Positions 69-34,598 of a DNA stretch of 45,037 bases are shown here, piece by piece. The position numbers were made by a program, and so were the translations under genes. The notes beneath the pieces are model-generated. The model was not told the origin of the DNA. It was given only the letters and a program-made list of their open reading frames with translations, and made no database searches. How positions within the stretch are numbered: position 1 is the stretch's first letter; each line of letters starts with the position of its first letter. This DNA comes from Candidatus Woesearchaeota archaeon (lineage in GTDB: Archaea > Nanobdellota > Nanobdellia > Woesearchaeales > DATGWN01), in the NCBI GenBank assembly GCA_047603125.1, contig JBLKOU010000004.1:1-45037 (forward strand), given 5' to 3'.

Positions 69-265
69 GGGCTTCATTCAATACTTGTTTTTAAAAAAAG
101 AGCACGCAGATTTGGCTCAAGAGTCCCGCTTTGAGAATCGTGCGAAAATTTGCCTACAACTTTTCGGATTCTCATCCTCAAGTTTGAAAGAAGCTTTCAA
201 ACAATCACCAAATTTTCTGAATTTGCTGCAAGGTGCTTTTTTTCCTTATTTTTTGGATGGAGCCC
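69..265. repeat. Structured intergenic repeat, copy A (MITE-like, imperfect GGG...CCC terminal inverted repeats)
   Basis: Ends GGGCTTCATTCAATA...TTTTGGATGGAGCCC. Reverse-complement homologue of 34444-34598. Its 46-nt core (161-206) is the exact reverse complement of 33240-33285. Confidence 0.85.
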
Positions 266-307
266 AATAGGATTTTTATTTATAAATATTGAAAAATTTT
301 CAAAAAT

Positions 308-907
308 GTGGTCAAAAAGTATATGAAACGTAGTAGACTTTTTTCTAGTATGATACAATTGTCTGGCACGACTTCACAGCAAAACATTCGCTTGATGGGA
401 GATTTAATTGAACCCTTTATAGTGAAAAAAATTCAAAAAGAATATCATACGCATTTTGTTTTTCGATGTGCAGACTTTCGAAATTATCAATCTTTTTTAC
501 GAATAAACCAATTTGAGAGTACTTGTATACAAGCTTTCAATAATTTACTAGAAAAATACTGGTCTTGTATTGACATAATTTACGTTAAAGTTAAGAATAT
601 GCCTGCATTCACACCTACAAAAGAATATTTTGATTTAATAGAACAATTACGAGAACAAAAAAATGAAATTATTGATTTTGAAATTTATGAAGTCAAATTT
701 ACTTCGAACTCTCAGTTGAAACCCATTCTATCATCAAAATCATATGACTGTATTTTGACTTTTGAGAAGATGTGTAAAAAAATAAGAATTATTACTATTT
801 TGAGTACTGGTTTTTGTCGTTTACAAATTGAAGAAAAATCTTTTTCTCGAGAAGATTTCTTTATTAAAACACATTATGGTCGCTTGGAAAAATCACAGTA
901 TCGGTAG
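308..907 (+). CDS. Hypothetical protein, possible PD-(D/E)xK nuclease-like fold
   Basis: 199-aa ORF with an IDII...YEVK pattern resembling the D...ExK motif. Start codon uncertain. Confidence 0.45.
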   Translation: MVKKYMKRSRLFSSMIQLSGTTSQQNIRLMGDLIEPFIVKKIQKEYHTHFVFRCADFRNYQSFLRINQFESTCIQAFNNLLEKYWSCIDIIYVKVKNMPAFTPTKEYFDLIEQLREQKNEIIDFEIYEVKFTSNSQLKPILSSKSYDCILTFEKMCKKIRIITILSTGFCRLQIEEKSFSREDFFIKTHYGRLEKSQYR

Positions 908-998
908 TTTTGCTAGGTGCATCAGTAAGGTTCGCATGTAGTAGTTGCTCAATTCACAAGAAATCAGACCTCGGTTTCATCCGGAGGGGCTAGAAAAA

Positions 999-1071
999 TA
1001 GCCCCGCTCGGATTTGAACCGAGGTCGCCTGGACCAAAACCAGACATGATTGGCCGCTACACTACGGGGCT
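999..1071 (-). tRNA. tRNA-Gln (UUG)
   Basis: Reverse complement reads AGCCCCG...TCTGG-TT-TTG-GT-CCAGG...GGTTCAAATCC...CGGGGCT-A. Cloverleaf, no intron, no encoded CCA. Confidence 0.95.
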
Positions 1072-1096
1072 ATATCGTGATGAGACTTCCAGCGAC

Positions 1097-1104
1097 TTTA
1101 TAAA
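1097..1104. promoter_or_regulatory. TATA box TTTATAAA, probably shared by divergent tRNA-Gln and the aminopeptidase gene
   Basis: Palindromic TATA about 25 nt from both the tRNA 5' end (1071) and ATG 1127. Confidence 0.55.
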
Positions 1105-1126
1105 GATTTTCATTCATATATTTCCT

Positions 1127-2077
1127 ATGACATCCGTGGGAGCTGAGCAAATATTTGCAAAATGTCTTGATTGTCAAAATAAGACGGTTCTGATCATCTA
1201 CGACCAGTCCTCAAAGACGGTAAATGCACTTTTAAGCAATCTTGCTATCAAAGCTGGTGCAAAGAGTGTGCGAAGCCAGAATCTGCTCACTCGCCCTGCA
1301 AATATAGCAGACATTCAACTAGACAACGCTCAGATTGTCCTTTTTGTCGCTTCTAAATATCCTGGTGAGGTACCTTTGCGCCGTCAATTACGAGAAAAAG
1401 CAGACCAAGAAGGGTTTATTTTCGGGGCAATGCAAGGTATAAGCCTTCCCATATTAAGTGAACTTTGGGATCAAGAGCAATCGTGGAATGTTGCAAGGGA
1501 GGTTTTTCAACAAGTAAATATGGCAAAAACGATTACTATTCAAAGCCCTGGTGGAACACAATTAACTTGCGAACTTGCACATAAATGGGTGTGTGCGACA
1601 AGTGATTTACGAAAACACCCCCAGCAAAGCTATAATATCCCTGGAAGCGAAGTCTATACTTGCCCAAAAACAGTCAATGGTGTTGCAGTCATTGATGGAG
1701 TGCTTGGCGATCATTTTACATCATTTGGACAATTGCAAAAAACGCCCGTTCATATACATATCACGGATGGGCGGATAACAAAACTTACTTGTGAGAACGC
1801 AAAGTTACAACAAGAACTCGAACAATATATCAAAACAGACGAGCATGCAAATCGAATTGGTGAGCTGGGAATTGGCTGCGCTGTTGGGATGAAACGCTTG
1901 TATACAAACATGCTCGCAGATGAAAAGTTTCCGGGCTGTCATATTGCATTTGGAAATCCCTATGGTGCAAAAACCGGAGCGAACTGGTCAAGTAGCGTTC
2001 ATTGCGATGGGATTATTCTTAATCCAACGATATTTGTAGATGGTGTCAAACTTGATATTGAATCACTGGGAAAATGA
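1127..2077 (+). CDS. Aminopeptidase, M29 (thermophilic metalloprotease / AmpS-like) family
   Basis: Motifs NIPGSEVYTCP, RIGELGIG, DEKFPGCHIAFG, SVHCD. Start moved to ATG 1127 because the ORF-track start lies inside the tRNA. Confidence 0.9.
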   Translation: MTSVGAEQIFAKCLDCQNKTVLIIYDQSSKTVNALLSNLAIKAGAKSVRSQNLLTRPANIADIQLDNAQIVLFVASKYPGEVPLRRQLREKADQEGFIFGAMQGISLPILSELWDQEQSWNVAREVFQQVNMAKTITIQSPGGTQLTCELAHKWVCATSDLRKHPQQSYNIPGSEVYTCPKTVNGVAVIDGVLGDHFTSFGQLQKTPVHIHITDGRITKLTCENAKLQQELEQYIKTDEHANRIGELGIGCAVGMKRLYTNMLADEKFPGCHIAFGNPYGAKTGANWSSSVHCDGIILNPTIFVDGVKLDIESLGK

Positions 2078-2872
2078 TTCGAGCATTTCTTCTTCCGTAA
2101 AATGAAGTTTTGCTGGCACAACTAAACTATGAAGTGGTTTTTGAAAATCTTTTTTGAGAATATTCTCACAGGTGTCATAGACAATTTGCTGATCAGTTGC
2201 ACCTAGTCGTGCAATGGCAACAATTTTTGTTTGTGGTGTGAGAATGTTTTGTTTCTTTTTTTCTTCTAATTCGAATAATTGCGTGATTGCTTGATTAACA
2301 GTCATAAAGCGAGGTGGCTGCGGTGTATAGTCTTCTTTTTGCAATTGTTCTCGTGTTGGTTCACTTACTTTAATATCGAGGAGTACCAATGTATGAAGAT
2401 TCTGCTCAAGATTTTGTGCAATCGTATCATAAGCAGATTCAGGCCGCCAATTTGCATCAAAAAAAACAAGGGATGGTGTTTTTCCAAATCGATAGAGCAT
2501 GAGTCCCGTGTTTGCAATTGCACTAAAGACGGATGCATTATTGATAATCTGTGTTTGGATATTTTTTTCTTTTGCGCGTAAATATAAATCACTATGCGTT
2601 GTTGCACAAAAGACATCTCCTGCAACTAAAAAAACAACACTTTTTTCTTGTGCGTCTTTGAGAATAGTTTCTTCTGCTTGTTGTTCAACAAGTGTTCTGG
2701 GTGCAAGATGAATTTTTTTCTTATAATAAGCTTCTAATTCTTCTATACTATTGTGCATAATTGAGGTATAGTATTCTAAGTATACAACATCGGCATTTTG
2801 AATTGCTTGCAAGCCTTTGACCGTTATATCTGTTTTATCAAAAAGTCCAAGGCCAATAAAGGTGAGTGTCAT
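2063..2872 (-). CDS. dph5: Diphthine synthase
   Basis: Motifs LTFIGLGL, YLEYYTS, GDVFCATTH, YRFGKT, LHTLVLLDI, PLHSLVVP. Confidence 0.95.
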   Translation of the reverse strand: MTLTFIGLGLFDKTDITVKGLQAIQNADVVYLEYYTSIMHNSIEELEAYYKKKIHLAPRTLVEQQAEETILKDAQEKSVVFLVAGDVFCATTHSDLYLRAKEKNIQTQIINNASVFSAIANTGLMLYRFGKTPSLVFFDANWRPESAYDTIAQNLEQNLHTLVLLDIKVSEPTREQLQKEDYTPQPPRFMTVNQAITQLFELEEKKKQNILTPQTKIVAIARLGATDQQIVYDTCENILKKDFQKPLHSLVVPAKLHFTEEEMLESFSQ

Positions 2873-2916
2873 AAAAACAAGAAAAAAACCCGAAGTTAAA
2901 AATGTATGGGTTTATT

Positions 2917-2963
2917 GGCTTTATCTAAAAATAAGGAAGAAGAGAACCTTGCAATAAAATTAG
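2917..2963 (+). repeat. Partial (left-arm) copy of the structured repeat
   Basis: GGCTTTATCTAAAAATAAGGAAGAAGAGAACCTTGCAATAAAATTAG resembles the start of copy D at 34444-34492. Confidence 0.6.
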
Positions 2964-2966
2964 ATG

Positions 2967-3150
2967 ATATAGTTAGCGACAAACGTTTGCGATAATACGG
3001 CGAATATAAGACAGCTGTCTATTTGCCAAAAATGGGCTGCATATTTTCGGATTTTCATCCTCAAGTTTGAAAGAGGCTTTCAAACAATCGCCCATTTTTG
3101 TGATTTTACGCCAAGGTATTATCGCTTTTTAATGTCGTAGGCTAACATAT
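2967..3150. repeat. Structured intergenic repeat, copy B
   Basis: Core 3044-3089 matches 161-206 at 44/46. Nested perfect inverted repeats at 3027-3037/3090-3100 and 2989-2998/3116-3125. Confidence 0.85.
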
Positions 3151-3190
3151 CCGAAGGCTTAAAAATACAGATAAAATCCCACCCCTACTT

Positions 3191-3784
3191 ATGAGAATAA
3201 AACCAGTTGTCAATTTACACGCGGGTCTTCGTTTTTGTGAAAATGGACAAGAAACGTTACCTGAACAAGAACTTCGCCAACAACTCGCCCCGGCTCTGTG
3301 TCGGGCGCATGTACGAACAGACGGGTCTGTTTATGAGGAATATTCTCCAGGCTATCAAAGAATTATTGGGGACTTTTGTATAAGGCAAACAGATTCTGGC
3401 TTTGTTAAGGAATTTGTTCTTTCTTCAGAACATTCTAGACAAACAAAACCTTTGTGCCCTTTTTATTTTGATGAGAATCACGCAATCAGACTTGATGATG
3501 AGCAGTCAACTATTTTTGAAGATGCCCATCCACTACTTGACTTACCGACATTTTACAAAAAACACGGTGTTTCTAATAAGCGCGGTATTATTCGAAGAAG
3601 ACCAAACATTGAAGGAAAAGTAGAATTTCTGAGTCGATATTTGCAAAGATATCTTGAATCAGACGTCTGGGATGGCTTACCTCGAAACTCGCCAACAAAA
3701 CATTTAGCACAACTCGAACAACTGTATGAATTTTATACAAAAGACAGTTTTATTTCTCAAGTTCGCCAACAGTTTTATGGTTGA
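3191..3784 (+). CDS. Hypothetical protein
   Basis: 197-aa ORF with an ATG start downstream of an AT-rich promoter-like stretch. No recognised motif. Confidence 0.65.
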   Translation: MRIKPVVNLHAGLRFCENGQETLPEQELRQQLAPALCRAHVRTDGSVYEEYSPGYQRIIGDFCIRQTDSGFVKEFVLSSEHSRQTKPLCPFYFDENHAIRLDDEQSTIFEDAHPLLDLPTFYKKHGVSNKRGIIRRRPNIEGKVEFLSRYLQRYLESDVWDGLPRNSPTKHLAQLEQLYEFYTKDSFISQVRQQFYG

Positions 3785-3787
3785 ATA

Positions 3788-4087
3788 TTAATGGAATTTG
3801 GAAAGCACATAAATCCCTAGGCTGATGGGAAGCGCAATTGCAAGCTCGTAGGAATGTGTTGGCGTGAACTGATATCCTGGTGGTGTAGGAAGACGAGGTT
3901 CAACCAATGTTCTTGTCTGAATTGGCATAATTCTGGATTGTTTTTCTCTTTGTAAAGATGCAAGTATCTCGGGTGAGACGTTTGTATCTGCCTCAACTAA
4001 AGCACTAATATCGCTTGTTGTTCGGGAATTGTTAAAAGAAAAAGTTTGTTGTTTTCTTCGTAAATCTCTTGCATAAGTATTTTTCAT
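3788..4087 (-). CDS. Hypothetical protein with C-terminal hydrophobic anchor
   Basis: 99 aa; C-terminal LAIALPISLGIYVL. Confidence 0.55.
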   Translation of the reverse strand: MKNTYARDLRRKQQTFSFNNSRTTSDISALVEADTNVSPEILASLQREKQSRIMPIQTRTLVEPRLPTPPGYQFTPTHSYELAIALPISLGIYVLSKFH

Positions 4088-4155
4088 GATACCTTGTTTT
4101 TAAGACTGTCCGGTATTTAAGCTTTACTCGAAAAAATAAGAAAAAGAAGAAAAAA

Positions 4156-4353
4156 TTAAAATTTTTTGAACCGAGCAACTTCGTCAATGAGCTCAACATG
4201 TCCTAAAAATAATGATCGAGAGGCGTAATTTGTTACACCTAAATCATCAAGTACTTTTTCAGGATCTTCGCCCTTTTTGACTCGCTCATCATACTCTTCC
4301 CACAAATGACCTATCGGCTCACCCGTGGAATAGCAACGTATGGGAAACATCAT
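4156..4353 (-). CDS. rpoN: DNA-directed RNA polymerase subunit N (Rpo10)
   Basis: MMFPIRCYSTGEPIG...VLDDLGV..YASR; canonical position after rps9. Confidence 0.93.
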   Translation of the reverse strand: MMFPIRCYSTGEPIGHLWEEYDERVKKGEDPEKVLDDLGVTNYASRSLFLGHVELIDEVARFKKF

Positions 4354-4751
4354 CGGTACGATTTTTGTCGCGTAGCTCTCGCTTTACCTAAGTGATTAGG
4401 CTTAGAAGTTTCTTTTCTTCTAATATCTGCGACCAAGATTTGACGATCATATTCTAAAAGCTGCGCTCGTAATTGCTCATCTTTTGTATAGTCGACAATT
4501 GCTCTTCCAATTGCGTTTCTAATTGCATCAGCTTGGCCAGTTATGCCGCCGCCTTGCACACGAATGGAAATATTGATTTTCTTTCGAAGATCCCCTGCAA
4601 TAATGAGTGGCTCTTCAATTTTTAATCGAAGCAATTTAGGTTGGTATTGTTCAAGTGGAACTGAATTAATTTTAATAACACCTGTTCCTTTTGTTACAGT
4701 CGCGCGAGCAATAGCTTGCTTTCGTCGACCGCTTTGATTTACTATACTCAT
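4350..4751 (-). CDS. rps9: 30S ribosomal protein S9
   Basis: GRRKQAIARA, GGGITGQADAIR, C-terminal QKSYR. Confidence 0.97.
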   Translation of the reverse strand: MSIVNQSGRRKQAIARATVTKGTGVIKINSVPLEQYQPKLLRLKIEEPLIIAGDLRKKINISIRVQGGGITGQADAIRNAIGRAIVDYTKDEQLRAQLLEYDRQILVADIRRKETSKPNHLGKARATRQKSYR

Positions 4752-5164
4752 TGTCTTCCTCCAAGTCGTTTTGATATTGTCTCAATTGTTACATACTTAA
4801 ACACTGGAAGCTTTGAAATGTTTGCATCATCATATGAAACCGTTTCCTTTCCTGCAAATTGCTGCGGAACGCCAATATGACATTTAATTCTTGCAAATGC
4901 ATCTTTTCCTTTTGATTGCTTATATGGTAACATTCCTCGAATCATTCTTTTTACTAAAAGATGTGGTCTTCTTGGAAAATATGGACCTTTGAGTGGTGTT
5001 CCTCGATGGTATCGTGCAAGCATTTTTTCTTCAACCTGTGTAGGTGTTCCAGAAATCACTGCTTTTTCACAATTAATAACATCGACAGTCTCACCATTAA
5101 GTGCTGCCTTTGCAACTTTGGTTGCAAATCGTCCAACTAATAAATCTGTTGCGTCAATAATCAT
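4748..5164 (-). CDS. rpl13: 50S ribosomal protein L13
   Basis: IIDATDLLVGR, GPYFPRRP, RGMLPYK. Confidence 0.97.
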   Translation of the reverse strand: MIIDATDLLVGRFATKVAKAALNGETVDVINCEKAVISGTPTQVEEKMLARYHRGTPLKGPYFPRRPHLLVKRMIRGMLPYKQSKGKDAFARIKCHIGVPQQFAGKETVSYDDANISKLPVFKYVTIETISKRLGGRQ

Positions 5165-5168
5165 TTTT

Positions 5169-19183: not shown

Positions 19184-19708
19184 TTATTCAAGAAAGCGTT
19201 CTATAAAACCTCTTTCGAAGTTTGGCCTGATAAAGCCCATTTGAATATATGCTTCTTTTAAGGAATGATTCAATGCAAACTCTTGTCTAAGTAATTTCCA
19301 GAGCCCTCCTCTAGAACTTTCCATTTCAATGGAAAGTTCCTTATAATCCATCAATGGTGAAAGCGTTCTTCTATCGGTAGTTTTATAACCAAAAGTATGA
19401 AATTGTAAACCTTTTTTATAATCACGGGCAATCAAAATTTGATCGCAGATATTGTTAAGTTGTCTCCTGGCGACTTGAATTGTTTCCCGAGATGTTTCAG
19501 CGTCAGCAAAATAATTATATTTGGCCATCTCTCTTCCGTTATTAGATATTGTGGAAAAGCCGGTCCCAATATCCAGGAATGGGCCGAATCCAGATTTAGA
19601 AAAAACCTCCATTCCAATTTTTTGTAATCCGAATTCTTCTGCAAAATTCAATTCACTCTCATCCATACTTTCGAGTTTATTATATACTGCATCTGAATAC
19701 ATGTTCAT
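19184..19708 (-). CDS. Hypothetical protein translationally coupled to rtcB
   Basis: ATGA overlap with the rtcB stop; 174 aa; no recognised family. Confidence 0.7.
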   Translation of the reverse strand: MNMYSDAVYNKLESMDESELNFAEEFGLQKIGMEVFSKSGFGPFLDIGTGFSTISNNGREMAKYNYFADAETSRETIQVARRQLNNICDQILIARDYKKGLQFHTFGYKTTDRRTLSPLMDYKELSIEMESSRGGLWKLLRQEFALNHSLKEAYIQMGFIRPNFERGFIERFLE

Positions 19709-20739
19709 CGCTCCACCACCACACCTAAAGGTTGAATTTTCGCAATTGGGTATGCAAGATTATGTTGTTGCAAACAATCTATTGCTGAATGTATATCTCT
19801 GTATCCTTGGGCGATTTCATCTGCCATAAGATGTGCGGAAACATTAAGTTCGATATTTGCAAATTTTCGACGATATTCGCCTTTTCCAAATTTTCCATTT
19901 AAATTGTTTCTTGCAAACTTTCGGCCAACACCGTGGTTTATAGTATATGCAGTACTGGCGACATCAGGACCTCCAATTACAAGGTAGCCTGGTGTGGTGG
20001 CAGTCCCGGGTATGACTCCAAGGTCACCTGGATGTATTTCTTGAGTTCCTTTTTGAACGATATAAGAACCATTATCCTCTCTGATGGTATTATGTGGTAT
20101 ATCTAAAAGAAGACACTCATCAGTTCCTAAATTTTTTAGAAAACGTAGTGCAAGTATTTCTCTGTTTACTTTAGCGTATTGTTGAGCTTTTAGAAACTCA
20201 TCTAGATAATGATGGTTTGAAACTTGTCGTGTTCCATTTTTTTGAAATTCTGTAAAAACAGCATATCCTTTCAGTCTGGATCCGCTATGAATGAGAAGTA
20301 ATGGTTTATCTTGTTTAATTCCAAAGCTGTTTAATGCCGCTTGATTTGTGACATCAAAAACAGCATATATATTTGCAAAATGATTACCTTTGCCCAAAGT
20401 TCCTGTTTTAGAATGGGGTGAAGCGGCGTTGGAGAGCTGGCGTACCATTTTGCTCAATTTATCCCTTTTTAAAGCTCCTTTGGAATAAATTCGACGTAAA
20501 GGAATATCTAACTGACTTAATCTATACCCGCACCCTATATCCATTCCTATAAATTGAGGACTAATGGGCTGATTTTGCGAAATTTGAAGTGTTGTACCAG
20601 TGGGTAGGGTGTTTGAAGGGGTACAATCTGGAAGAAGAGCTGCGCGTTCAATTTCAATGTCTCGAGTTAAACTGGCAATATTTTGAATTGCGGATTTAAT
20701 AATATGGTCGTTTGTGTCGCTTGGAATTGCAAGTTTCAT
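19705..20739 (-). CDS. rtcB: RtcB-family RNA ligase (compact, divergent)
   Basis: LPD, DIGCG, GTLGKGNHF, HSGSR, PHN, NHGVGR, DEIAQGYRDI. Confidence 0.88.
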   Translation of the reverse strand: MKLAIPSDTNDHIIKSAIQNIASLTRDIEIERAALLPDCTPSNTLPTGTTLQISQNQPISPQFIGMDIGCGYRLSQLDIPLRRIYSKGALKRDKLSKMVRQLSNAASPHSKTGTLGKGNHFANIYAVFDVTNQAALNSFGIKQDKPLLLIHSGSRLKGYAVFTEFQKNGTRQVSNHHYLDEFLKAQQYAKVNREILALRFLKNLGTDECLLLDIPHNTIREDNGSYIVQKGTQEIHPGDLGVIPGTATTPGYLVIGGPDVASTAYTINHGVGRKFARNNLNGKFGKGEYRRKFANIELNVSAHLMADEIAQGYRDIHSAIDCLQQHNLAYPIAKIQPLGVVVER

Positions 20740-25564: not shown

Positions 25565-26002
25565 TTAGTACAAGTTTTTCCAATCAACATTTACATCAAA
25601 TGGCATTCTCCCTTGCTTAGCTTCGCATTGACTTACCGCATAATCCCAACCAAGCAAATCTAATCGGATAGTCGGATTTGTAAATCCTGGTGTCTCAAAT
25701 GTTTTTGGTCTAATTTGTAATTCGGGATTGAATCTTCCAACTGCTTTTATATCATATGTATTGAATGCTTGTGGTTCTAATTTTGCATCCAAGCCATATT
25801 TTGTGGTCAGACCAAACTCTGAATCTTCGAGTCTACACAAATATAATCCTGAATCTTCAGAGTCAAGCTCCACATTGATTGGAATATTTGCTAGCATTCT
25901 TCCCATTGGACTATTTTTGTCCATCACAAATGGTTCTACTCGAAATCCGCTTTGTGTATTTGTGTCAAGTACTATTTCTTTGATTATATTATCTAGTTTC
26001 AT
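25565..26002 (-). CDS. Hypothetical protein
   Basis: 145 aa; 7-nt gap from the upstream gene. Confidence 0.7.
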   Translation of the reverse strand: MKLDNIIKEIVLDTNTQSGFRVEPFVMDKNSPMGRMLANIPINVELDSEDSGLYLCRLEDSEFGLTTKYGLDAKLEPQAFNTYDIKAVGRFNPELQIRPKTFETPGFTNPTIRLDLLGWDYAVSQCEAKQGRMPFDVNVDWKNLY

Positions 26003-26009
26003 TTATTCT

Positions 26010-26600
26010 CTATTTCCCTTTCAATGAAAGTAGCGCATGCGCAAACGCATGGTAATCTTTAATCGTTGCTCTGGTATCGTTTGCATCTTCGATTCTATTG
26101 AGATCAAAACTATATCTGCGTAAATATTCGAGCACAGGTTCTCCTGGTTTTGGTAACACTGGAAAATCATCGCAATCCGCAAGTGCAAGCAAAGAATTTC
26201 CAGATTGAACTGTTGGTAATATATCGGGACTACTATGTGTAGTTTGCAAACTTGGTACTGGTTTTCTTGTAGTAGTTCTACCAAAAGCTGTAGTAGTCGC
26301 TCTATTAAGTTCAGTGGAGTACATCCCACCATCGGCATAATGTCCGATTAAAGGAACATCCTGACCCATTGCATACAACGCTAAGGCTAAACCTAGCTGT
26401 CGATTTTTCCAACCTGCCCTATTTTCTTCTGCATCCAAGTGTGAACTTGTTAAAACCATTCCGTAAGGTTTTTCTCCCATGCGTTCGATTGCAGATCGAA
26501 AGTCTTTTACTCTGTCAACCCTAAATCCTTCGTGGACTAATCGGTCTATTGTTGTTGTATTTTTATCATTTTTTTCTGCTAATAAAATATAATTATTCAT
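26010..26600 (-). CDS. Degenerate receiver (REC)-like protein
   Basis: YILLAEKN...GFRVDRVKDFRSAIERM..PYGMVLTS; Ser at the phospho-Asp position; GGAGG SD. Confidence 0.65.
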   Translation of the reverse strand: MNNYILLAEKNDKNTTTIDRLVHEGFRVDRVKDFRSAIERMGEKPYGMVLTSSHLDAEENRAGWKNRQLGLALALYAMGQDVPLIGHYADGGMYSTELNRATTTAFGRTTTRKPVPSLQTTHSSPDILPTVQSGNSLLALADCDDFPVLPKPGEPVLEYLRRYSFDLNRIEDANDTRATIKDYHAFAHALLSLKGK

Positions 26601-27057
26601 TGTTTCTTCCTCCCGTATACGTAAGTAAACATTCCATATTCTGTGTTAATGGAATTTGATAGCTTTGTATTTGAGTTTGTCTACCTGAGCTTTGATGCAT
26701 TTGTGTTTGTAAAAATCGTAATGCCATGTTTTTATATGCATTAAACGCAGGTTCGCCAGTCTTCCTTGTACTGATTTGCATCTCGCCAAGCATTTCATTT
26801 TCATGTAGGGCCCTTTTAAATTCAGGGTTAAATGCCGTTAATGATTTTCCATATGGCGTCTGATGTGAAATGAAAAAAGTGTTTTCATAGCTTTTTAGTT
26901 TCAATCCATTAGGAAATTCATATACTTGAACCGGATTCTCAGTTTGAATTTCTATTCTCTGTTGCGAATTTTCTATAGGGTTGTTCGCATTTATTGCATT
27001 TGGGAAAGTCGTTGCTAAAAGCATTCCAGCTAGTCCCATCATTGTTCGTTTTTTCAT
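26593..27057 (-). CDS. Putative secreted protein
   Basis: MKKRTMMGLAGMLLATTFPNAINA signal-like N-terminus. ATGA overlap at 27054-27057. Confidence 0.65.
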   Translation of the reverse strand: MKKRTMMGLAGMLLATTFPNAINANNPIENSQQRIEIQTENPVQVYEFPNGLKLKSYENTFFISHQTPYGKSLTAFNPEFKRALHENEMLGEMQISTRKTGEPAFNAYKNMALRFLQTQMHQSSGRQTQIQSYQIPLTQNMECLLTYTGGRNNE

Positions 27058-27665
27058 TTTTTTCTTCTCCATTCCATTCTTTCAAAGGCATCTTTCCAAA
27101 AATCACTTTGTGCTTTGTATTGTGGATAATCTTTTGGGCAATCAACTAATAACCAACCCTTATTAGCTGCAAACCTGTTAATTGGCTCAGTCATACTATC
27201 GTGGTGATATGTTGATGTGACTAAGGCAAAAGGAATGTCATTTTGATCACAATACTGACCAATTTGAATTCCAAGTGGTTGATTGGCCTGATCAAGCGCC
27301 ATCTCTTCAAGCATCATGCGTTTATAGCCAAAGTCTCTATGCAAATCAACACCTGGCGTTCTCTTAGCTATTCCCTTCATGAGAGAATAACCAAGTTGAT
27401 GAGTTTGCTCTAGTGCTCGACTTGTGTGTGACTCTTGAAACGGAGTTGCAAACGGCTCAAGTAAGTCAACAATGTCTTTACCCAAGTTTACATGTCCACT
27501 CCCAGTTTGATAGGGGAAAAAACAATCCGTAAGGACCGATTCAAACGCTTTTGTAATTTGCATTGCCTCACAATAATCTCGTGCGAGCATAGCGTTGGGA
27601 AACGCTTGTAGTGCGGCTTTTTGAAATTCAGGATTGTCTTCAACTATAAGTAATCCTTTTTTCAT
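27054..27665 (-). CDS. Atypical receiver (REC) domain protein with internal insertion
   Basis: LLIVEDN, VLTDCFFP, QPLG, IPFALVTSTYHH. Confidence 0.75.
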   Translation of the reverse strand: MKKGLLIVEDNPEFQKAALQAFPNAMLARDYCEAMQITKAFESVLTDCFFPYQTGSGHVNLGKDIVDLLEPFATPFQESHTSRALEQTHQLGYSLMKGIAKRTPGVDLHRDFGYKRMMLEEMALDQANQPLGIQIGQYCDQNDIPFALVTSTYHHDSMTEPINRFAANKGWLLVDCPKDYPQYKAQSDFWKDAFERMEWRRKK

Positions 27666-28537
27666 AGCAAATCACCACCATATCTATTTGCGGGAGTAAG
27701 TATTTGCTCACGCGTCATTGAAAGTTGGTTGTAGTCTACACCGGGTCTTTGTATTCCAAGTAATGTGTCAACAACCATTCCCAATTCATAAGTTCCTCCA
27801 CAAGATACTGGAAACAATTTGACATACATACTTCTTGCAAAATTTTCTTTTTCTTTCCAATTGCATCGACATGCAAGCATATTAACTTCAAGTCGAATAT
27901 CGTGCCCTAATGCAGCTGCACTGTAGCGTGCATTATCTCTACTGTGGAGCCCGTCATACACAAAAACATTTTTGATGAGTTCACGATCGGATTTCCAATC
28001 AAATGATCCAAAAATTTTTTTTGTTTTTTGAGCGATGACTTGTTTTGCTGTTTCTTGAGCAAATCGTTCATAGGAGAGTACAAGTACTTTGCCTGAAATC
28101 AATCCTTCATTGTAGCCCTCAATTGGATTGTATGACATAACAATTGAAAGTTTTGGATCTATGGCGGGTCGTGAGTCAGTCTGTTCGAGAACAGGGATGC
28201 CAAATTGTTTTTTGACCTCGTCAAAGATTCGGTCCGTTCGAACTACTCGTACACCCTTTGTCTGATACACGCTTGGTTGCACCCAACCTGGCTGAAAGCT
28301 TGTAAAGATAACAGGGGCTTGCATGCCTTTCTCTCTAAGATGTGCAAGTGTCTGTGAACCTTTGGCGTCTTGCATATTATTTGCATCATTATCTAGTATG
28401 ACCAAATCATAGTTCAAATTATCAAGCATTTGAGCTTGAAATTGACTTGCGACATCAACTTGAGAGTTGATTCTTTTTTTCATTGCAAGTGCGTCTTCTC
28501 CATCGTCGTTTATGACTAATATTTTTTCGATTCCCAT
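27662..28537 (-). CDS. Receiver (REC) domain fused to a Cys-motif domain
   Basis: KILVINDD, YDLVILD, PVIFTS; C-terminal ACRC...SCGG. Confidence 0.75.
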   Translation of the reverse strand: MGIEKILVINDDGEDALAMKKRINSQVDVASQFQAQMLDNLNYDLVILDNDANNMQDAKGSQTLAHLREKGMQAPVIFTSFQPGWVQPSVYQTKGVRVVRTDRIFDEVKKQFGIPVLEQTDSRPAIDPKLSIVMSYNPIEGYNEGLISGKVLVLSYERFAQETAKQVIAQKTKKIFGSFDWKSDRELIKNVFVYDGLHSRDNARYSAAALGHDIRLEVNMLACRCNWKEKENFARSMYVKLFPVSCGGTYELGMVVDTLLGIQRPGVDYNQLSMTREQILTPANRYGGDLL

Positions 28538-28543
28538 GTTTTT

Positions 28544-29071
28544 TCACTCCGTAAATGTATTCAAGTATTCCTGACAGCGAGCTTTCGTACGTTGCATCCG
28601 TTCTCGGTCTGCAGCAGAGACGTAAAAGCCATTTGCTATATTGGCTTCTAATATTCCAATTCTTCCAAGTTCTTGTTGAGCTTGTTTAACTGTTGCAGTA
28701 GTATATCCAAGATCATTTGCTCGCATGATATCGAGCTCTTCTTTTATTTGATCGGCTTTGACACGGACGAGAGTATCATAATTTCCGTTGGAACCTTCTC
28801 TTGCAATCTCAACAAAATCACCAGTTTTACGATCAAAGATGAGACGAAGGGAACCTCTTCCGGATTGTCCATTCTCTTTGTTTAGATATTTGGCATCAAC
28901 GGCGATTTGTCCGGCCCTGCCATTATTAAGAGTATGAACATTGTAATTTCCTCGCGATAAGTCTTGATTGGGAGAAGCCAACATACTGGATGCAAGCAAT
29001 ACATCTAATCCAAACTTGGAAATATTTCGGCAGTTCAAACCTGCTTTATTGATAATTTTCTTTAATGTCAT
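28544..29071 (-). CDS. Hypothetical protein (first gene of the receiver operon)
   Basis: ATG 29071; weak hydrophobic segment near the N-terminus. Confidence 0.65.
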   Translation of the reverse strand: MTLKKIINKAGLNCRNISKFGLDVLLASSMLASPNQDLSRGNYNVHTLNNGRAGQIAVDAKYLNKENGQSGRGSLRLIFDRKTGDFVEIAREGSNGNYDTLVRVKADQIKEELDIMRANDLGYTTATVKQAQQELGRIGILEANIANGFYVSAADRERMQRTKARCQEYLNTFTE

Positions 29072-29186
29072 AAGTAACACCACTAAGCAGTAGTGCTCTT
29101 AAGTTATTATATTTTTTCAATATTTTTCATATTTATTATATTCTTTTTTCGAAACTTATTTAAAAAGAAAGAGCTTTCTGATTTTC

Positions 29187-29984
29187 ATGCAGCGAAAAGT
29201 CATTAAACAAGGGAATGGGTCATATACAGTAACTTTGCCGAAAAAGTGGACGAATTTATTTGAAATTGATCAGACAAAAACGGTGACTATGTCTGTAAAA
29301 GGAGATACCTTGTTAATTCATACTGGCTCTACTAAAGCACAACGATACGAACTTGATTTGCAGCTAATTAAAAACTCTAAAACGATAAGAATGATTTTGG
29401 TGGAATTATATCGTAAAGGCATGGATGTTATTATAATAAAGAATTATACTCAAGATAATTTATTTTCCATTAAAAAAGAACTCCAAAGTCTTCAAGGATT
29501 TCAAATAACATCGCAGAGCGAAAAAATTATCCAAATTGAATTTATATTTGGCCCGAGTATGTCGGATGAATATCAAAAATACATTCAAAGAATGTTTTAC
29601 ATCTTGATTGAATTTTGTTCAGACAATTCTAACATTCAATTGCAAGATACTTTTGCCACGCTGAATAATTTTTTGCGAAGACTCTTATATAAACGTGATG
29701 TGGTAAATAGAGAATATTATACTATTATTTTAAATAGTTTGTCTCGAGTTATGCATCAAATTAAAACAATTGATTATACAAAAAATGAGCTATCGAGAAT
29801 TTCCTTTTATCTGAAAACAACTTTAGGATTGTTCCAAAAGTTTCACATTACTACTTTTAATAAAACAGTAGAACAATTACAAAAAGATATCGTGGATAAA
29901 AAAAACATGGAGGTTCAGGGCTCATTTAGGGATATATATAATACGTTATCCCGAATACTCGTGTTGAATTATCTTGCTGATTAA
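29187..29984 (+). CDS. AbrB/MazE-type DNA-binding domain protein, archaeal PhoU-like regulator (degenerate)
   Basis: RKVIKQGNGSYTVTLPKKW, LYRKGMD, helical C-terminus. Confidence 0.75.
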   Translation: MQRKVIKQGNGSYTVTLPKKWTNLFEIDQTKTVTMSVKGDTLLIHTGSTKAQRYELDLQLIKNSKTIRMILVELYRKGMDVIIIKNYTQDNLFSIKKELQSLQGFQITSQSEKIIQIEFIFGPSMSDEYQKYIQRMFYILIEFCSDNSNIQLQDTFATLNNFLRRLLYKRDVVNREYYTIILNSLSRVMHQIKTIDYTKNELSRISFYLKTTLGLFQKFHITTFNKTVEQLQKDIVDKKNMEVQGSFRDIYNTLSRILVLNYLAD

Positions 29985-31459
29985 TGACGCAAATATTTAC
30001 TTGTCCGTGCCAACTGAGAAATTTGTGTATAGTGGTACGATGCAGATAAGTCGCAGCCCATCTTGTGTGCAGCTAATCGTAGTCCGTCTAGATATAATAA
30101 TTCTACAACTTCTTGGGCAGTCGGTTTATCTCGTATTTTGAAATTTTGCTCACGACTTATTCGAAAATACGTATTCACTGCAGATTCTACTTGATCGTCA
30201 ATATTCTTATTTAAATCTATTACATCAAGTAAACTAAATGCAATGTCTCGGGACGGAGTGCCAATTCTCACACTACCCAAATCAGTTATCTGTGAATCGG
30301 AGACCCAATTGTCTGCTTTTGCATCGTCATGAGTAATGGTTTGGTATTTTCTTTGAGCATATTTTCTTTCCAGTTCATGGTATGAAGGTCCTTCTCCTGT
30401 TCTTAATCCTGTTAAAAATAAATCACTAATAGTGCTAGAAAGATTGCCATATTCTTGTTTTTGCGTAAAAGTGAGTAATTCTCGTTTTTTTTGGTATTTT
30501 TTTAAATTATTTGAAAATATATCTGCGAATCTCTCGGCTGTAATAACATAGGGTTTATCAGTTTCAAATTGTGAATCATAAGGTAATGAGTGGATTGCGC
30601 TTAAAGTATACAAACGTTTTTCTAATAGTGATGAATATGTACTTGCACTATTTGGTTTTGAAGCTTTCCGAGAAGCCACTAAACTAATCTCTGCATCAGT
30701 ATGGACAATTTCTTGTGGTGTTACTAGGTCGCAAAGTGTCGAATTTGATTGTGCTATTCTGGAGAATGCTTGTGCTCGTTTGGCGCGTTGTGTCTCTTCA
30801 AATTTGTAAAAAGTATTTTTTGGTACAAGTTTAACTTTTTGGCTATCTAAAATTTCTAACTCCTCGCGAGAAAATTCAGATCTTTCAAAGGCGCTATGTA
30901 ATAAGACGGGAGCTCTAGGGTAGAGTTCTCTTAATTTACGTACAGTTTCGATACCTGTTCCTAGTTTTCCTTCTCCTCCTTGAAAGTTGTTATTTATAAC
31001 AAAAACAAGTTTAGAGCTATTCGCACCTGGTGGAAACCAGTATTCGATCTCGCCGTCTGCTATGTTGGATTCTGAAAAAAAGGAAAAGGTTTGGCTTTGA
31101 TTTCTCTGATCGGTTATATTTTTCAAACGATCGTTAACAAAAATAATTCTATGTCCTAAATTTGCAAAATTATCTTGTTGGCAAGGTCCTAATTTTTCGC
31201 AAATGTTGCCAAGAAAAATTTTGTCCAAGTAATTTCTATATTCGTGAGCAATGTAGTTTTTAACTTCCTTAGTACGCATTGGTAAGTCTGCCAGAAGTTC
31301 GGGGTGTTTTTGTTCTATGTCTTCTAGTAATCTATCTGATAGTTCTGACTGGAGTGTAATTTCCTCATCGCCAATTATGTCAATTATACTTTGTTTCCAA
31401 AGTGGTCTAAGAATAGGGCTGACGCGTTCGAATGCTCTGCATAGAGTTGCACTTTTCAT
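29981..31459 (-). CDS. REC-like domain fused to an APH/choline-kinase-like phosphotransferase
   Basis: RIIFVND...TGIETVRKLRELYPRAPVLLHSA...VPK, then THDDAKADNW...TDLG...RDIA. Confidence 0.7.
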   Translation of the reverse strand: MKSATLCRAFERVSPILRPLWKQSIIDIIGDEEITLQSELSDRLLEDIEQKHPELLADLPMRTKEVKNYIAHEYRNYLDKIFLGNICEKLGPCQQDNFANLGHRIIFVNDRLKNITDQRNQSQTFSFFSESNIADGEIEYWFPPGANSSKLVFVINNNFQGGEGKLGTGIETVRKLRELYPRAPVLLHSAFERSEFSREELEILDSQKVKLVPKNTFYKFEETQRAKRAQAFSRIAQSNSTLCDLVTPQEIVHTDAEISLVASRKASKPNSASTYSSLLEKRLYTLSAIHSLPYDSQFETDKPYVITAERFADIFSNNLKKYQKKRELLTFTQKQEYGNLSSTISDLFLTGLRTGEGPSYHELERKYAQRKYQTITHDDAKADNWVSDSQITDLGSVRIGTPSRDIAFSLLDVIDLNKNIDDQVESAVNTYFRISREQNFKIRDKPTAQEVVELLYLDGLRLAAHKMGCDLSASYHYTQISQLARTSKYLRH

Positions 31460-31562
31460 AATAAGGGGGTGACAGGATAGTATTTAAAGGTTTCTATTCG
31501 TAGTTACTAGTAAGTAATAAATTTAGAAATGTTTATAAGTAGGCTTGATTTACCCCTTCCAT

Positions 31563-32501
31563 ATGACAGTAATTAACGCATTAGTATTTAATCCCGAGAT
31601 GGGTGCCATTGTCTCTGATGAGCAGAGTTCTTCACAGAGTAGAAAAGAAAACACTGCAAAAAAAGTCTTTCCTTTATACGATAAAGGGGATTTGCAAGTA
31701 CTTATCGGAGAGGCAGGTCCGGTTAGTGAGAATCTAGAGGTTATTTATTCTTCGCAATATCAACCACTGGGTGCATCTTCATTCTTACAAGTTGCCAAAC
31801 ACGTGTCAAAAAAGGCAGCTAAACAGCGACTTAAATCTCTTAAACACTTTTTAAAAGGGAAGCACGGCCTACCATTTAAACAGGTAAAAAGAGGTAAAGA
31901 CAAAAAAGGAGCAGATATACATTCTTACATTATACAAGCATATATGAGTGATTTTTCACAAGGTTGCCAGCAGCAAAATCAGATAGGAAGCTTTGTTCTT
32001 CTTGGAAAAAGCGCGAATGAGCCTGCCAAAATTATTTATTTTGATTCTCGCAACAAAAATCTTTATCCCATGTTTCAAGGTCATTATTCAACAGGGTCGG
32101 GTGCAGATGCAAGTAATCTTGAATTATCCAAATTTATGAATGATATTCCTAGAAATAATCGTAATAACATTAATCCAGTAGAGGGATTAGAAGTTCTTTT
32201 ATATGCAACACATTTGGCGGGTTCAGTAAACCACGGGGTGGGCGGCATTCCTGATATTGGGATAATTCATAACGACAAAATAATTCAACCTGGGGAGTAT
32301 GAGTCTCAACTTGCAGGGGAAATATCTCAATTGAAGAGACGTGACAACCTCATCCGCCCAGAATTCGCTTATGAAGCGATGAAAGGGTTATTGCTTGAAG
32401 ATGCAAATTTTGATGCAGTCTACGACGATTTACAAAAAGAATCGCAAAGCCAAGGAACGCAAAGACAAGTTGACCAATTCTTACGCGGCTATAGAATTTA
32501 A
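31563..32501 (+). CDS. Proteasome-beta/Ntn-hydrolase-like protein without propeptide
   Basis: M-T-VINAL, SDEQ, KKVF, IGEAG, TGSG, GVGG. ATG 31563 lies about 25 nt after TTTATAAG. Confidence 0.75.
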   Translation: MTVINALVFNPEMGAIVSDEQSSSQSRKENTAKKVFPLYDKGDLQVLIGEAGPVSENLEVIYSSQYQPLGASSFLQVAKHVSKKAAKQRLKSLKHFLKGKHGLPFKQVKRGKDKKGADIHSYIIQAYMSDFSQGCQQQNQIGSFVLLGKSANEPAKIIYFDSRNKNLYPMFQGHYSTGSGADASNLELSKFMNDIPRNNRNNINPVEGLEVLLYATHLAGSVNHGVGGIPDIGIIHNDKIIQPGEYESQLAGEISQLKRRDNLIRPEFAYEAMKGLLLEDANFDAVYDDLQKESQSQGTQRQVDQFLRGYRI

Positions 32502-32508
32502 AAAAAAG

Positions 32509-32581
32509 GATGGCCACCGGGAGTTGAACCCGGGCCTGGGGTTCCACAGACCCCTATGCTAACCATTACACCATGGCCATC
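32509..32581 (-). tRNA. tRNA-His (GUG), G-1 genomically encoded
   Basis: Reverse complement reads G-ATGGCCA...GGGGT-CT-GTG-GA-ACCCC...GGTTCAACTCC..TGGCCAT-C. Confidence 0.95.
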
Positions 32582-32608
32582 ATACTCATGAGGAGATACG
32601 GGTTCTTT

Positions 32609-33130
32609 TTAAAGTTGTTTGTTTAAAAATTTCTTCATCTGCCCGAAAACAAGTGGAGCAAGAAAAGCCACAATGTACAAAAAGACAACGACATGCACAC
32701 TTCTCTCAATATAGAAAATATTTGGAAGCTGCTCAGTTGCAAGAGAGAAAATAACCAGCCCTCCTGTTGCAGCTAAATATGGCACAAAAATATACAAAAA
32801 TAAGTGGTGGTGCCCGCGAAATTGATGGTCGATATCATTAAGAATCGTTGTAAATAACTGCCCAAAAACAAGACCAATTAAGATAAGAATCAAGTAAATA
32901 ATCGGATTTGGTAAGACGGCAAAAAGTGGAACAATGACAAACATGATTGCGATATTTGTCAAAACCATGATAGAAAACAAAAACCAAGGAAGTATGGTAT
33001 CAAATTGTTTTTGTTTCGGGTGACGTCTTGTATGAGATTGTGACATGACGCGTTTGACTCGTTCGAGGTCTTTTTGTTCCCAGCCACGTTTATGAAGACC
33101 GTCCACTATTTCTTGTGCTCGCGAAGACAT
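32609..33130 (-). CDS. Membrane protein (about 4 TM)
   Basis: Soluble N-terminus followed by four hydrophobic segments. Confidence 0.75.
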   Translation of the reverse strand: MSSRAQEIVDGLHKRGWEQKDLERVKRVMSQSHTRRHPKQKQFDTILPWFLFSIMVLTNIAIMFVIVPLFAVLPNPIIYLILILIGLVFGQLFTTILNDIDHQFRGHHHLFLYIFVPYLAATGGLVIFSLATEQLPNIFYIERSVHVVVFLYIVAFLAPLVFGQMKKFLNKQL

Positions 33131-33175
33131 GTGTATTTTTCATACATTTGACTTTAAAAGTCTTTAGGAGTTATT

Positions 33176-33372
33176 GGGTTTGTGTAAAAATTAAAAGAAA
33201 TAAGCAATATTACCTTGATGCCTCATTACGACATGGCGCGATTGTTTGAAAGCTTCTTTCAAACTTGAGGATGAGAATCCGAAAATATGCAGCGCCTCGT
33301 CGGCAAGATACGCGAGTCCAAATCAGTCGTAATATTGCGGTAAAATAAAAATTCAATTTTTCACACAAATTT
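33176..33372. repeat. Structured intergenic repeat, copy C
   Basis: Core 33240-33285. Nested inverted repeats at 33229-33239/33292-33302 and 33204-33213/33329-33338; outer TTTGTGTAAAAATT/AATTTTTCACACAAA. Confidence 0.85.
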
Positions 33373-33386
33373 GGAGTTATTTCACC

Positions 33387-33417
33387 AAAAAAGAAGAGCA
33401 CCTTGCAGCAAAATCAG
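33387..33417 (+). repeat. Partial (left-arm) copy of the structured repeat
   Basis: AAGAGCACCTTGCAGCAAAATCAG matches 34469-34492 with one mismatch. Confidence 0.65.
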
Positions 33418-33442
33418 TGTGTTCTTTATCTAATCAACCCGT

Positions 33443-33973
33443 CTAAGAAACAATCTGTAATTGTTGAATTGTTGCAATCGCTTTTTGTTCATGCGATGCT
33501 AAACAACTTGGAGAGAGCCGTGTGTCGCTGAGTATGACATCGTATTGTCGCTCTTCTTGATCTATGAGATTACGCCGAAAATTCCAACGTTGTGTGGCAT
33601 ACTCTATTTCAACACGCTCATTTGCGGGCACAACAAAGAAGCGTTCTCGTCCATAAAATGGTTCGGAGAAATATAATGTATCTTGCGCATACATGTGTTG
33701 ATTTACTGCAGATAATTCAATTGCTGTTTGTGAATTATAGTTATTAGTTTCACATAAATAGACAAATTGTTGTGGATGTCGTTTTTCAAAAACACCATTA
33801 TTTTCAAGAATGAGTGTCAAAATTGGAACGTTCTCAATCTGGCTAGTATTGATAATAGTTGTTTGTGAAATTTCATACGATATTTGAAGCGAATCATCAA
33901 GGGCAAAAAAGACAAGAAAAGTTAAAATGATAAAAAGAGGAAGTGCAATGCCAATGATGACCTTTATATTCAT
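33443..33973 (-). CDS. Membrane-anchored extracellular hypothetical protein
   Basis: N-terminal TM helix and two Cys; ATGA overlap with the upstream gene. Confidence 0.7.
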   Translation of the reverse strand: MNIKVIIGIALPLFIILTFLVFFALDDSLQISYEISQTTIINTSQIENVPILTLILENNGVFEKRHPQQFVYLCETNNYNSQTAIELSAVNQHMYAQDTLYFSEPFYGRERFFVVPANERVEIEYATQRWNFRRNLIDQEERQYDVILSDTRLSPSCLASHEQKAIATIQQLQIVS

Positions 33974-34224
33974 TTTTTCATCTTTTTTGATAAATACAAA
34001 CCAAGGCCCATCATAATCACGGCTGAAATTCCTAATATGGAGAGTATTCCATTTCTTCCAAGCGAGAATGCGTCAATGATAAAACTCATTGTAAATAAGT
34101 ACAGACTCACACTAACGACATAGAGCACCGGGTACCATTTTCGCATTGTTGTTACAAGTATAATACTCACAACAATTGTGATTAAAAATACTAACCATCC
34201 TACTGCAAGTGACCAACCTACCAT
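33970..34224 (-). CDS. Small 3-TM membrane protein
   Basis: 84 aa, hydrophobic; coupled to both neighbours. Confidence 0.7.
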   Translation of the reverse strand: MVGWSLAVGWLVFLITIVVSIILVTTMRKWYPVLYVVSVSLYLFTMSFIIDAFSLGRNGILSILGISAVIMMGLGLYLSKKMKK

Positions 34225-34400
34225 TATACATCCCTCTCCTGTAATACGTCAGCAGTTACAAAAATAATTACTGTCAAACAGCCTAAAATAACGGCTTTTA
34301 TGATGTCCGGTAAATCAAAGATATACTGGTATGAAAAATAACCAAGTGTTACTATTAACAATATGGTTCCTATCGTATAAAACAGGATTTCGATTTTCAT
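34224..34400 (-). CDS. Small 2-TM membrane protein (58 aa, not in the ORF track)
   Basis: MKIEILFYTIGTILLIVTLGYFSYQYIFDLPDIIKAVILGCLTVIIFVTADVLQERDV*. TAATG overlap with the next gene; TATA-like element upstream. Confidence 0.7.
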   Translation of the reverse strand: MKIEILFYTIGTILLIVTLGYFSYQYIFDLPDIIKAVILGCLTVIIFVTADVLQERDV

Positions 34401-34443
34401 ACTGGTGTATGAGTTTGTGCATATTTAAATGTTTGCTATGCCT

Positions 34444-34598
34444 GGGCTTCATCCAATAAATAAGAAAAAAGAGCACCTTGCAGTAAAATCAGAGAATTTA
34501 GTGATTGTCTGCAACTAAATTTTCGCATACTTCTCAAAGCGGGACTCTTGAGCAAAATCTGCGTGCTCTTTTTTGAAAACAATTATTGGATGAAGCCC
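34444..34598. mobile_element. MITE-like copy D of the structured repeat, with perfect 16-bp TIR and most of the core deleted
   Basis: GGGCTTCATCCAATAA...TTATTGGATGAAGCCC; colinear with the reverse complement of 69-265. Confidence 0.75.

What the first reader, a model, noticed from the sequence alone, without database searches (positions are those of the whole stretch)
69..34598. Dispersed intergenic repeat family with covarying secondary structure (candidate new structured RNA or ssDNA element)
Seen: copies at 69-265 (A), 2967-3150 (B), 33176-33372 (C) and 34444-34598 (D). A, B and C share a 46-nt core, read on C(+) as GATT-GTTTGAAAG-ctt-CTTTCAAAC-TTGA-GGAT-gaga-ATCC-GAAAA. The only two differences in B fall in the two loops, and GAGA->GAAA keeps a GNRA tetraloop. 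The stem enclosing the core differs in every copy but still pairs: GAAAATTTG/CAAATTTTC (144-152/209-217), CAAAAATGGGC/GCCCATTTTTG (3027-3037/3090-3100), CGACatGGCGC/GCGCCtcGTCG (33229-33239/33292-33302). An outer stem also covaries (GCGATAATAC/GTATTATCGC, GCAATATTAC/GTAATATTGC, GAGCAC/GTGCTC) and always carries the same AC-[CTT bulge]-G. Established: GNRA loops and compensatory changes typify functional RNA folds. Inference: the structure is under selection rather than being passive decay of a MITE. The GNRA loop suggests the sense strand is minus for A and B and plus for C and D. I do not recognise the family.
Basis: partly seen in the sequence, partly recalled or inferred. Interest (0 to 1): 0.85.

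Follow-up and report, generated by a model that had tools for sequence, protein, structure and literature searches.

The report
Y-shaped folded module in archaeal mini-transposons
The four repeats are small jumping-DNA elements with different transposon ends that all carry one uncatalogued, strongly conserved Y-shaped fold, which is also scattered without transposon ends through many related tiny archaea and more likely works as folded single-stranded DNA than as RNA.

Summary
The universal unit is a ~95-nt three-way junction: outer stem, CTT bulge, 4-bp helix, 11-bp stem with loop GATTYATGCA, third hairpin. A covariance model finds 117 copies in this Woesearchaeota-like genome. They sit between at least four end types with different target duplications (3, 8, 9 bp), including IS630- and IS6-type ends, so the window copies are MITEs. 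Six of nine family relatives carry 8-44 copies, and many copies elsewhere have no transposon ends. In 139 distinct outside copies the 11-bp stem has 115 sequences and is fully paired in 110. GNA triloops, scarce G·T, no orientation preference and almost no RNA contigs favour single-stranded DNA, REP-like in behaviour, but no partner enzyme was found. No Rfam match. One intact-looking IS5-type element carries the module inside its right end, a plausible MITE precursor. This scan noted the same family before on other DNA (e1-6982087, e1-949735, e1-3612766).

The parts
70..264 (-). Copy A: MITE with GGC(T)TCATCCAA-type ends, long form; target duplication imperfect and out of register
96..242 (-). 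Three-way-junction module of copy A
   Evidence: 47.8 bits; the model strand is the reverse of the folded strand
161..202 (-). 42-nt two-hairpin insert in the conserved loop of A
2970..3146 (-). Copy B: MITE with IS630-type TAGT...ACTA-like ends (one end degenerate; possible 3-bp ATA duplication)
   Evidence: ends read by eye
2989..3125 (-). Module of copy B, with the 42-nt insert at 3044-3085
   Evidence: (80.3 bits)
33176..33372 (+). Copy C: MITE with GGGTTTGTG ends and a perfect 9-bp target duplication (33167-33175 / 33373-33381)
33204..33338 (+). Module of copy C
   Evidence: 44.4 bits
33244..33285 (+). 42-nt insert between GATT and TATGCA; a DNA contig of run X2 skips exactly these 42 bases
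34445..34597 (+). Copy D: short form of the A family; 9-bp target duplication with one mismatch; about 20 bases from the 3' end of the SRP RNA gene
34467..34572 (+). Module of copy D, without the insert (11-nt loop variant)
   Evidence: (70.9 bits)

Best explanation
There are two layers. Shell (shown): each window copy is a MITE, about 20-35 bases of each end of an insertion sequence, moved in trans by that family's transposase. Core (shown): a ~95-nt three-way junction that folds on one strand. Its stems may have almost any sequence so long as they pair, while the C-CTT-G bulge, the 4-bp helix, the 11-bp stem length, the 10-nt loop and short junction words are held. Mechanism (inferred): the core folds as single-stranded DNA exposed during replication or transcription, and is read by a lineage-restricted protein, in the way REP hairpins are read by TnpA(REP). 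Cut-and-rejoin in the conserved loop would explain why three unrelated double-hairpin inserts sit at the same GATT^YATGCA point and why one insert is shared at near identity by families with different stems and ends. A core that lands inside an IS (as in L315) becomes a MITE when the transposase gene is deleted, and then amplifies. End-less copies are either direct insertions or MITEs whose ends decayed while the core was kept. The protein is not identified.
For: End types and target duplications differ by family: 3 bp in 16 of 16 E copies; 9 bp in 9 of 14 A/D copies with at most one mismatch; 8 bp in 3 of 3 true G copies. The G end matches the left end of an IS6-type transposase element, and E/B/F ends match IS630-type ends, in the same genome. 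The core lies in both orientations relative to the two IS630-type ends. Autonomous elements mostly lack it: 0 of 28 IS6-like loci, 0 of 1 full IS630-like element, 1 of 20 IS5-like loci. Covariation far exceeds shuffled and slid controls. GNA triloops occur in 61 of 157 third arms against 14 on the other strand; GNRA tetraloops 4 against 4. GNA/GNNA mini-hairpins are far more stable in DNA than in RNA and occur in ssDNA priming signals (PMC13037366, passages). Between co-directional genes the core is sense 29, antisense 30 outside this genome and 24 against 29 in it. Presence is all-or-none among close kin. TnpA(REP) recombines and shuffles REP substrates in vitro (PMC3333891, passages), which is the model for the inferred step.
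Against: No partner was found. Y1/HUH transposase does not co-occur (only a 67-aa fragment here, 1 of 6 other positive genomes), nor reverse transcriptase (1 of 7), TnpB (0 of 5) or a second tyrosine recombinase. No gene family is enriched beside the copies. Tandem G·A pairs and GGA loops also occur in RNA, and ssDNA and RNA motifs are hard to tell apart by computation (PMC5737381, passage). End-less copies show no target duplication or terminal signature, so autonomous mobility of the bare core is not shown. Within the A/D family many copies have mismatched stems, so selection on MITE-borne copies is weak. Many third arms descend from a few types, so the triloop counts are not independent events.
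Confidence: 0.5

Rival explanations
1. The core is a structured RNA (a small ncRNA or protein-binding RNA tag) transcribed from the reader's strand. MITEs spread it, and useful copies are kept.
For: One strand is clearly preferred. Junctions on that strand are A-rich. The insert's small loop is GNRA in 35 of 38 copies. One 157-nt RNA-library contig of a C-type copy was seen. Copies keep the same side and strand next to homologous genes in 14 of 18 pairs (pairs not independent).
Against: G·T makes up only 23 of about 1,500 cells of the 11-bp stem. Triloops dominate over tetraloops. There is no orientation preference relative to genes. In two metatranscriptomes SRP RNA gave depth 180 and 51, while the element gave one contig at depth 5.5 in one run; contigs cannot show level or strand, so this is weak.
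Confidence: 0.25
2. The core is a host chromosome signal that works in either orientation, such as a primase or replication-restart site or a topoisomerase or nucleoid-protein site. MITEs only carry it.
For: Copies are retained at apparently orthologous spacers (grpE-dnaK, ribosomal protein L30, pgm-aldolase) with fully changed stems. Mini-hairpins mark phage G4 and ssiA priming signals (PMC13037366, passages). REPs bind gyrase, IHF and PolI (PMC3333891, passage).
Against: It is not found in three family members, two of them 90-94% complete, nor in most of the order. An essential host signal should not be all-or-none among close kin.
Confidence: 0.12
3. These are ordinary MITEs: the fold is a by-product of palindromic IS remnants, and the covariation comes from arm-to-arm copying (palindrome correction) without function.
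For: TIRs and target duplications. MITEs commonly fold (PMC10969869, passage). A Woesearchaea genome is among the most MITE-dense archaea (PMC11602168, passage). Nearly pure Watson-Crick pairing fits copying.
Against: Copying cannot make tandem G·A pairs on one strand, nor hold an asymmetric bulge, a fixed 11-bp length and junction words across unrelated IS ends and end-less copies. Autonomous IS mostly lack the core.
Confidence: 0.09
4. On the opposite strand the core is a bulge-helix-bulge or bulge-helix-loop intron, cut by the tRNA splicing endonuclease and ligated by RtcB.
For: The opposite strand shows helix / 4 bp / AAG bulge geometry in every family. The host has EndA and RtcB.
Against: The second bulge is not conserved outside this genome. 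No splice joint was seen in the few RNA contigs (uninformative).
Confidence: 0.04

Closest known systems
Prokaryotic MITEs (IS630-, IS6-, IS5-derived)
   Same: Short, non-coding and intergenic, with terminal inverted repeats, family-specific target duplications and partner transposases in the same genome; transcripts or strands can fold (PMC10969869, PMC11602168, passages).
   Different: One covarying core is shared by at least four end types in this genome, and by IS200/IS605-like and IS5-like ends elsewhere. The core also occurs without ends. Full-length IS mostly lack it.
REP / BIME / REPIN with TnpA(REP) (RAYT)
   Same: Dozens of extragenic copies, patchy among kin, structure kept while stem bases vary, a needed irregularity in the stem, mosaic module exchange, and association with IS elements (PMC3333891, passages).
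   Different: A three-way junction of ~95 nt, not a 20-40-nt hairpin. No conserved GTAG-type foot. No Y1 gene flanked by copies, and no co-occurrence with Y1 transposase.
Integron attC sites and the DUF1874 motif
   Same: Structure-coded, sequence-variable sites with extrahelical bases that work as ssDNA. PMC5737381 (passage) calls ssDNA more complex than a hairpin rare.
   Different: No conserved RYYYAAC/GTTRRRY ends (consensus recalled; one search shows no terminal conservation), no cassette arrays, and only one XerA-like recombinase per genome.
Single-strand initiation signals (phage G4 origin, ssiA)
   Same: Multi-hairpin ssDNA with GNA mini-hairpins (PMC13037366, passages).
   Different: Chromosomal, multicopy and carried by MITEs; not found on viral contigs (four chance matches); priming not tested.
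Archaeal bulge-helix-bulge introns
   Same: A 3-nt bulge next to a 4-bp helix on the antisense strand.
   Different: The second bulge is absent, and the folded strand is the other one.

Membership tests
MITE | Terminal inverted repeats | tested here: met
   (A/D, C, E, G families; B has one degenerate end)
MITE | Target-site duplication of family-specific length | tested here: met
   3 bp in 16/16 E; 9 bp in 9/14 A/D; 8 bp in 3/3 G; perfect 9 bp at window copy C
MITE | Short, non-coding, multicopy | tested here: met
   117 model matches, 1 overlapping a long ORF
MITE | Autonomous partner with the same ends | tested here: inconclusive
   Met for G (IS6-type) and E/B/F (IS630-type) ends. No partner found for A/D or C ends (negative; repeats are collapsed at contig ends).
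MITE (for the end-less copies in relatives) | TIRs and target duplication | tested here: not met
   A crude IR test was positive in 9 of 182 copies (lower bound); no duplication above control
REP/BIME-RAYT | Short hairpin with a conserved 5' tetranucleotide foot | tested here: not met
   No conserved word outside the stem
REP/BIME-RAYT | Y1 (HUH) transposase gene flanked by, and co-occurring with, the repeats | tested here: not met
   no model match in 21 Y1 loci
REP/BIME-RAYT | ssDNA binding and cleavage by the partner | not testable with these tools
   needs biochemistry
attC / integron | R''/R' boxes at the ends and cassette arrays | tested here: not met
attC / integron | Integron integrase in the genome | tested here: inconclusive
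   One tyrosine recombinase in 4 of 5 genomes, XerA-like by eye; no IntI-specific model was run
Bulge-helix-bulge intron | Two 3-nt bulges 3' of a 4-bp helix on the transcribed strand | tested here: not met
   Second bulge variable; strand evidence opposite
Known Rfam RNA family | Covariance-model match | tested here: not met
   window; 12 outside loci
Retron / DGR / retro-element RNA | Linked reverse transcriptase | tested here: not met
   no model match in 10 RT loci
TnpB/IscB guide-RNA scaffold | Position at the 3' end of tnpB, abutting the right end | tested here: not met
   No TnpB in 5 positive genomes; no TnpB among 146 adjacent ORFs

The most novel reading that the evidence does not exclude
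The core is the first member of an undescribed class of archaeal single-stranded-DNA signal: a branched, structure-coded site with its own unidentified cutting-and-joining protein. It spreads by itself, accepts hairpin cassettes at one fixed loop position, and is repeatedly captured by unrelated insertion sequences to found new MITE families.
Probability: 0.35. Interest if true: 0.85.

Novelty: new variant of a known kind. Interest (0 to 1): 0.63.

Why it matters
MITE interiors are usually treated as leftover sequence. Here one interior is under structure-level selection, crosses transposase families and persists without ends, so it points to an unknown nucleic-acid-binding or -processing activity in DPANN archaea. 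If it works as ssDNA it would be a rare branched ssDNA motif. The consensus and about 200 natural variants make binding, cleavage and priming assays directly designable. It also offers a concrete route for how new MITE families are born (L315-type intermediates).

Tried and rejected
Bulge-helix-bulge intron: my first idea, dropped on strand evidence. Rfam: no match. Partner searches without result: Y1_Tnp, RVT_1, TnpB (87), four-helix-bundle protein (48; one sits beside a copy in G087 only), phage integrase, and DDE_Tnp_1, IS256, DDE_3 and IS1595 in the own genome. Neighbour-gene clustering found no enriched family. Viral contigs gave four matches, none passing the model. The whole-alignment G·U versus A·C count was uninformative (19 v 28 and 29 v 30); only the 11-bp stem separated the strands. 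Absence of RNA contigs over copy D and over run X8's element region proves nothing. A recalled likeness of the loop to a retron msr was not tested beyond the lack of a linked RT. Paper searches returned no description of this motif; most subscription papers are not searched, and I did not read supplements (the MITE lists of PMC11602168 may contain these elements). A DGR paper I wanted for loop comparison was not held, so nothing rests on it.
Full report
Observation. The four copies exist as described. The window is contig C33 of a 1.12-Mb, 36% GC archaeal genome. Its relatives by this motif carry Woesearchaeota titles. Rfam finds only two tRNAs and SRP RNA in the window and nothing over the repeats, even at E up to 10.

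The shell is a MITE. Self-comparison of the genome gives 177 repeat loci that sort into families with different ends. Target duplications are family-specific: 3 bp in 16 of 16 E copies; 9 bp in 9 of 14 distinct A/D copies (6 perfect, 3 with one mismatch, 5 none); 8 bp in 3 of 3 true G copies (a fourth regex hit was false); and a perfect 9 bp at window copy C. The G end is identical over 19 bases to the left end of an IS6-type transposase element, and TAGT-type ends precede an IS630-type helix-turn-helix ORF. Partners for the A/D and C ends were not found, but several IS are collapsed at contig ends. The family labels for those two end types are therefore open.

The core is a separate unit. A model from 16 short copies finds 117 matches in the genome among 150 candidates scored (a lower bound). 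Across those 16, 25 of 28 pairs change on both sides. Across 54 distinct outside copies, 26 of 28 do, with a covariation score of 0.74 against 0.20 shuffled and at most 0.14 slid (that alignment was fitted to the model). Long and short forms exist in the A/D, B, C, E, E2 and J families, and a DNA contig skips exactly those 42 bases. Two other, unrelated double-hairpin inserts, in family G and in G007, sit at the same point of the loop.

Distribution. Six of 9 same-family genomes have 8-44 matches, and 0 of 31 genomes of other families have any. A wider sample gave 4 of 150 in the order. A class-wide sample gave 2 of 150, both in the same order. G003, G004 and G009 stay negative under looser settings. 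I tested 80 with the model: 52 passed, all with archaeal titles (43 Woesearchaeota, 8 'uncultured Methanosarcinales', 1 'Euryarchaeota SM23-78'), and the 28 bacterial ones all failed. The Methanosarcinales titles are probably mislabels; I did not test this with a tree. These sets were picked by the loop and bulge pattern, so they cannot show loop conservation independently; the model-found copies in G001-G008 show it with variants. My regex set of 199 distinct copies contains at least one chance hit (L091) and related organisms.

Many copies have no ends. In several genomes every copy has its own stems and no recognisable IS end. A crude inverted-repeat test was positive in 9 of 182 (it misses imperfect and IS200/IS605-type ends), and no target duplication stood above control. 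Others lie between IS200/IS605-like hairpin ends or further TIR types (family names by eye and recall). Full-length IS mostly lack the core: 0 of 28 IS6-like loci, 0 of 1 full IS630-like element, and 1 of 20 IS5-like loci. That one, L315, has the core between the transposase stop and the right inverted repeat. Of 146 adjacent ORFs scanned (of 192 listed), two were transposases: L315, and L140, where the MITE end lies between core and gene. Next to homologous genes, copies kept the same side and strand in 14 of 18 pairs at 25-89% protein identity, with different stems. The pairs are not independent and one is probably a spurious ORF.

Which strand, which molecule. This fixes the strand and rejects my bulge-helix-bulge idea, although the host has EndA and RtcB. 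The third arm carries GNA triloops in 61 of 157 distinct arms, against 14 on the other strand, and GNRA tetraloops 4 against 4. GNA and GNNA mini-hairpins are much more stable as DNA (PMC13037366, passages). Orientation between co-directional genes is even (29 v 30; 24 v 29). MITE-borne copies here favour divergent spacers (36 v 4 convergent), and outside copies lean the other way (15 v 28). Two lake metatranscriptomes held SRP RNA at depth 180 and 51 but only one C-type contig at depth 5.5; contigs show neither strand nor level. Against this: the strand bias and G·A pairs fit RNA too, and PMC5737381 (passage) warns that the two are hard to separate.

Mechanism and rivals. The best reading (0.5) is a folded ssDNA signal read by a lineage-restricted protein, REP-like in behaviour, captured by IS ends to make MITEs. 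Shell, core, strand and selection are shown; ssDNA function, loop cleavage and the direction of capture are inferred. No partner co-occurs among Y1, RT, TnpB or tyrosine recombinases. Rivals: structured RNA 0.25, host chromosome signal 0.12, passive palindrome 0.09, splice motif 0.04.

Known or new. As MITEs the window copies are a known kind, and a Woesearchaea genome is already listed as MITE-dense (PMC11602168, passage). The core fails the membership tests for REP, attC, BHB introns and Rfam families, and six paper searches (listings only) found no description. Papers seen as passages only: PMC11602168, PMC8632793, PMC5737381, PMC3333891, PMC13037366, PMC10969869; no supplements were read. 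Earlier notes of this scan describe the same family as MITEs with a Y-shaped core. This work adds the end-less majority outside this genome, the strand, the DNA-type loops, the fixed insertion point, and the finding that the core is not a regular IS end.

Noticed in passing
window 33387-33417 and 2917-2973: Left-half remnants of A-family MITEs directly beside copies C and B; the elements pile up at the same spacers.
   Followed up: partly
G000, e.g. C57:22881-23070, C21:2175-2363: A separate ~190-nt repeat family with IS200/IS605-like hairpins and no shared core, bounded by AATAA/AATA. 16 copies were parsed, several inserted into the A-rich flanks of core-bearing MITEs.
   Followed up: partly
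window 34619-34887 (-): Archaeal SRP RNA gene (Rfam 96.6 bits), well covered in both metatranscriptomes; copy D lies about 20 bases beyond its 3' end.
   Followed up: partly
window 19705-20739 (-): RtcB-family ligase (344 aa) among accessory genes; the window also has tRNA-Gln (999-1071) and tRNA-His (32509-32580).
   Followed up: no
window 25565-29083 (-): Run of six overlapping or closely packed ORFs without Pfam match, some with receiver-domain-like N-termini by eye.
   Followed up: no
G000 contig ends (C1, C2, C10, C13, C20, C39 and others): At least six different collapsed IS-like ends break the assembly, so several active full-length IS families are unassembled.
   Followed up: no
L278, L334, L348, L351, L360, L372, L376 (third arm of the module): GC-rich multi-hairpin cassettes with GNA triloops nested in the third arm; possibly related to the four-way-junction repeat of note e1-4641002 (not compared).
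   Followed up: no
L082:3228-6564 (G087): The only two copies in this genome are inverted, share 52 identical bases, and flank a four-helix-bundle gene, a 494-aa unknown and TsaD/Kae1.
   Followed up: partly
G000 C39:14000-14356: A C-family and a D-family MITE inserted in tandem, sharing one 9-bp target duplication three times.
   Followed up: no
G000 C19:232-441: Short tandem array of ~59-nt repeats just after a tRNA-Ser gene.
   Followed up: no
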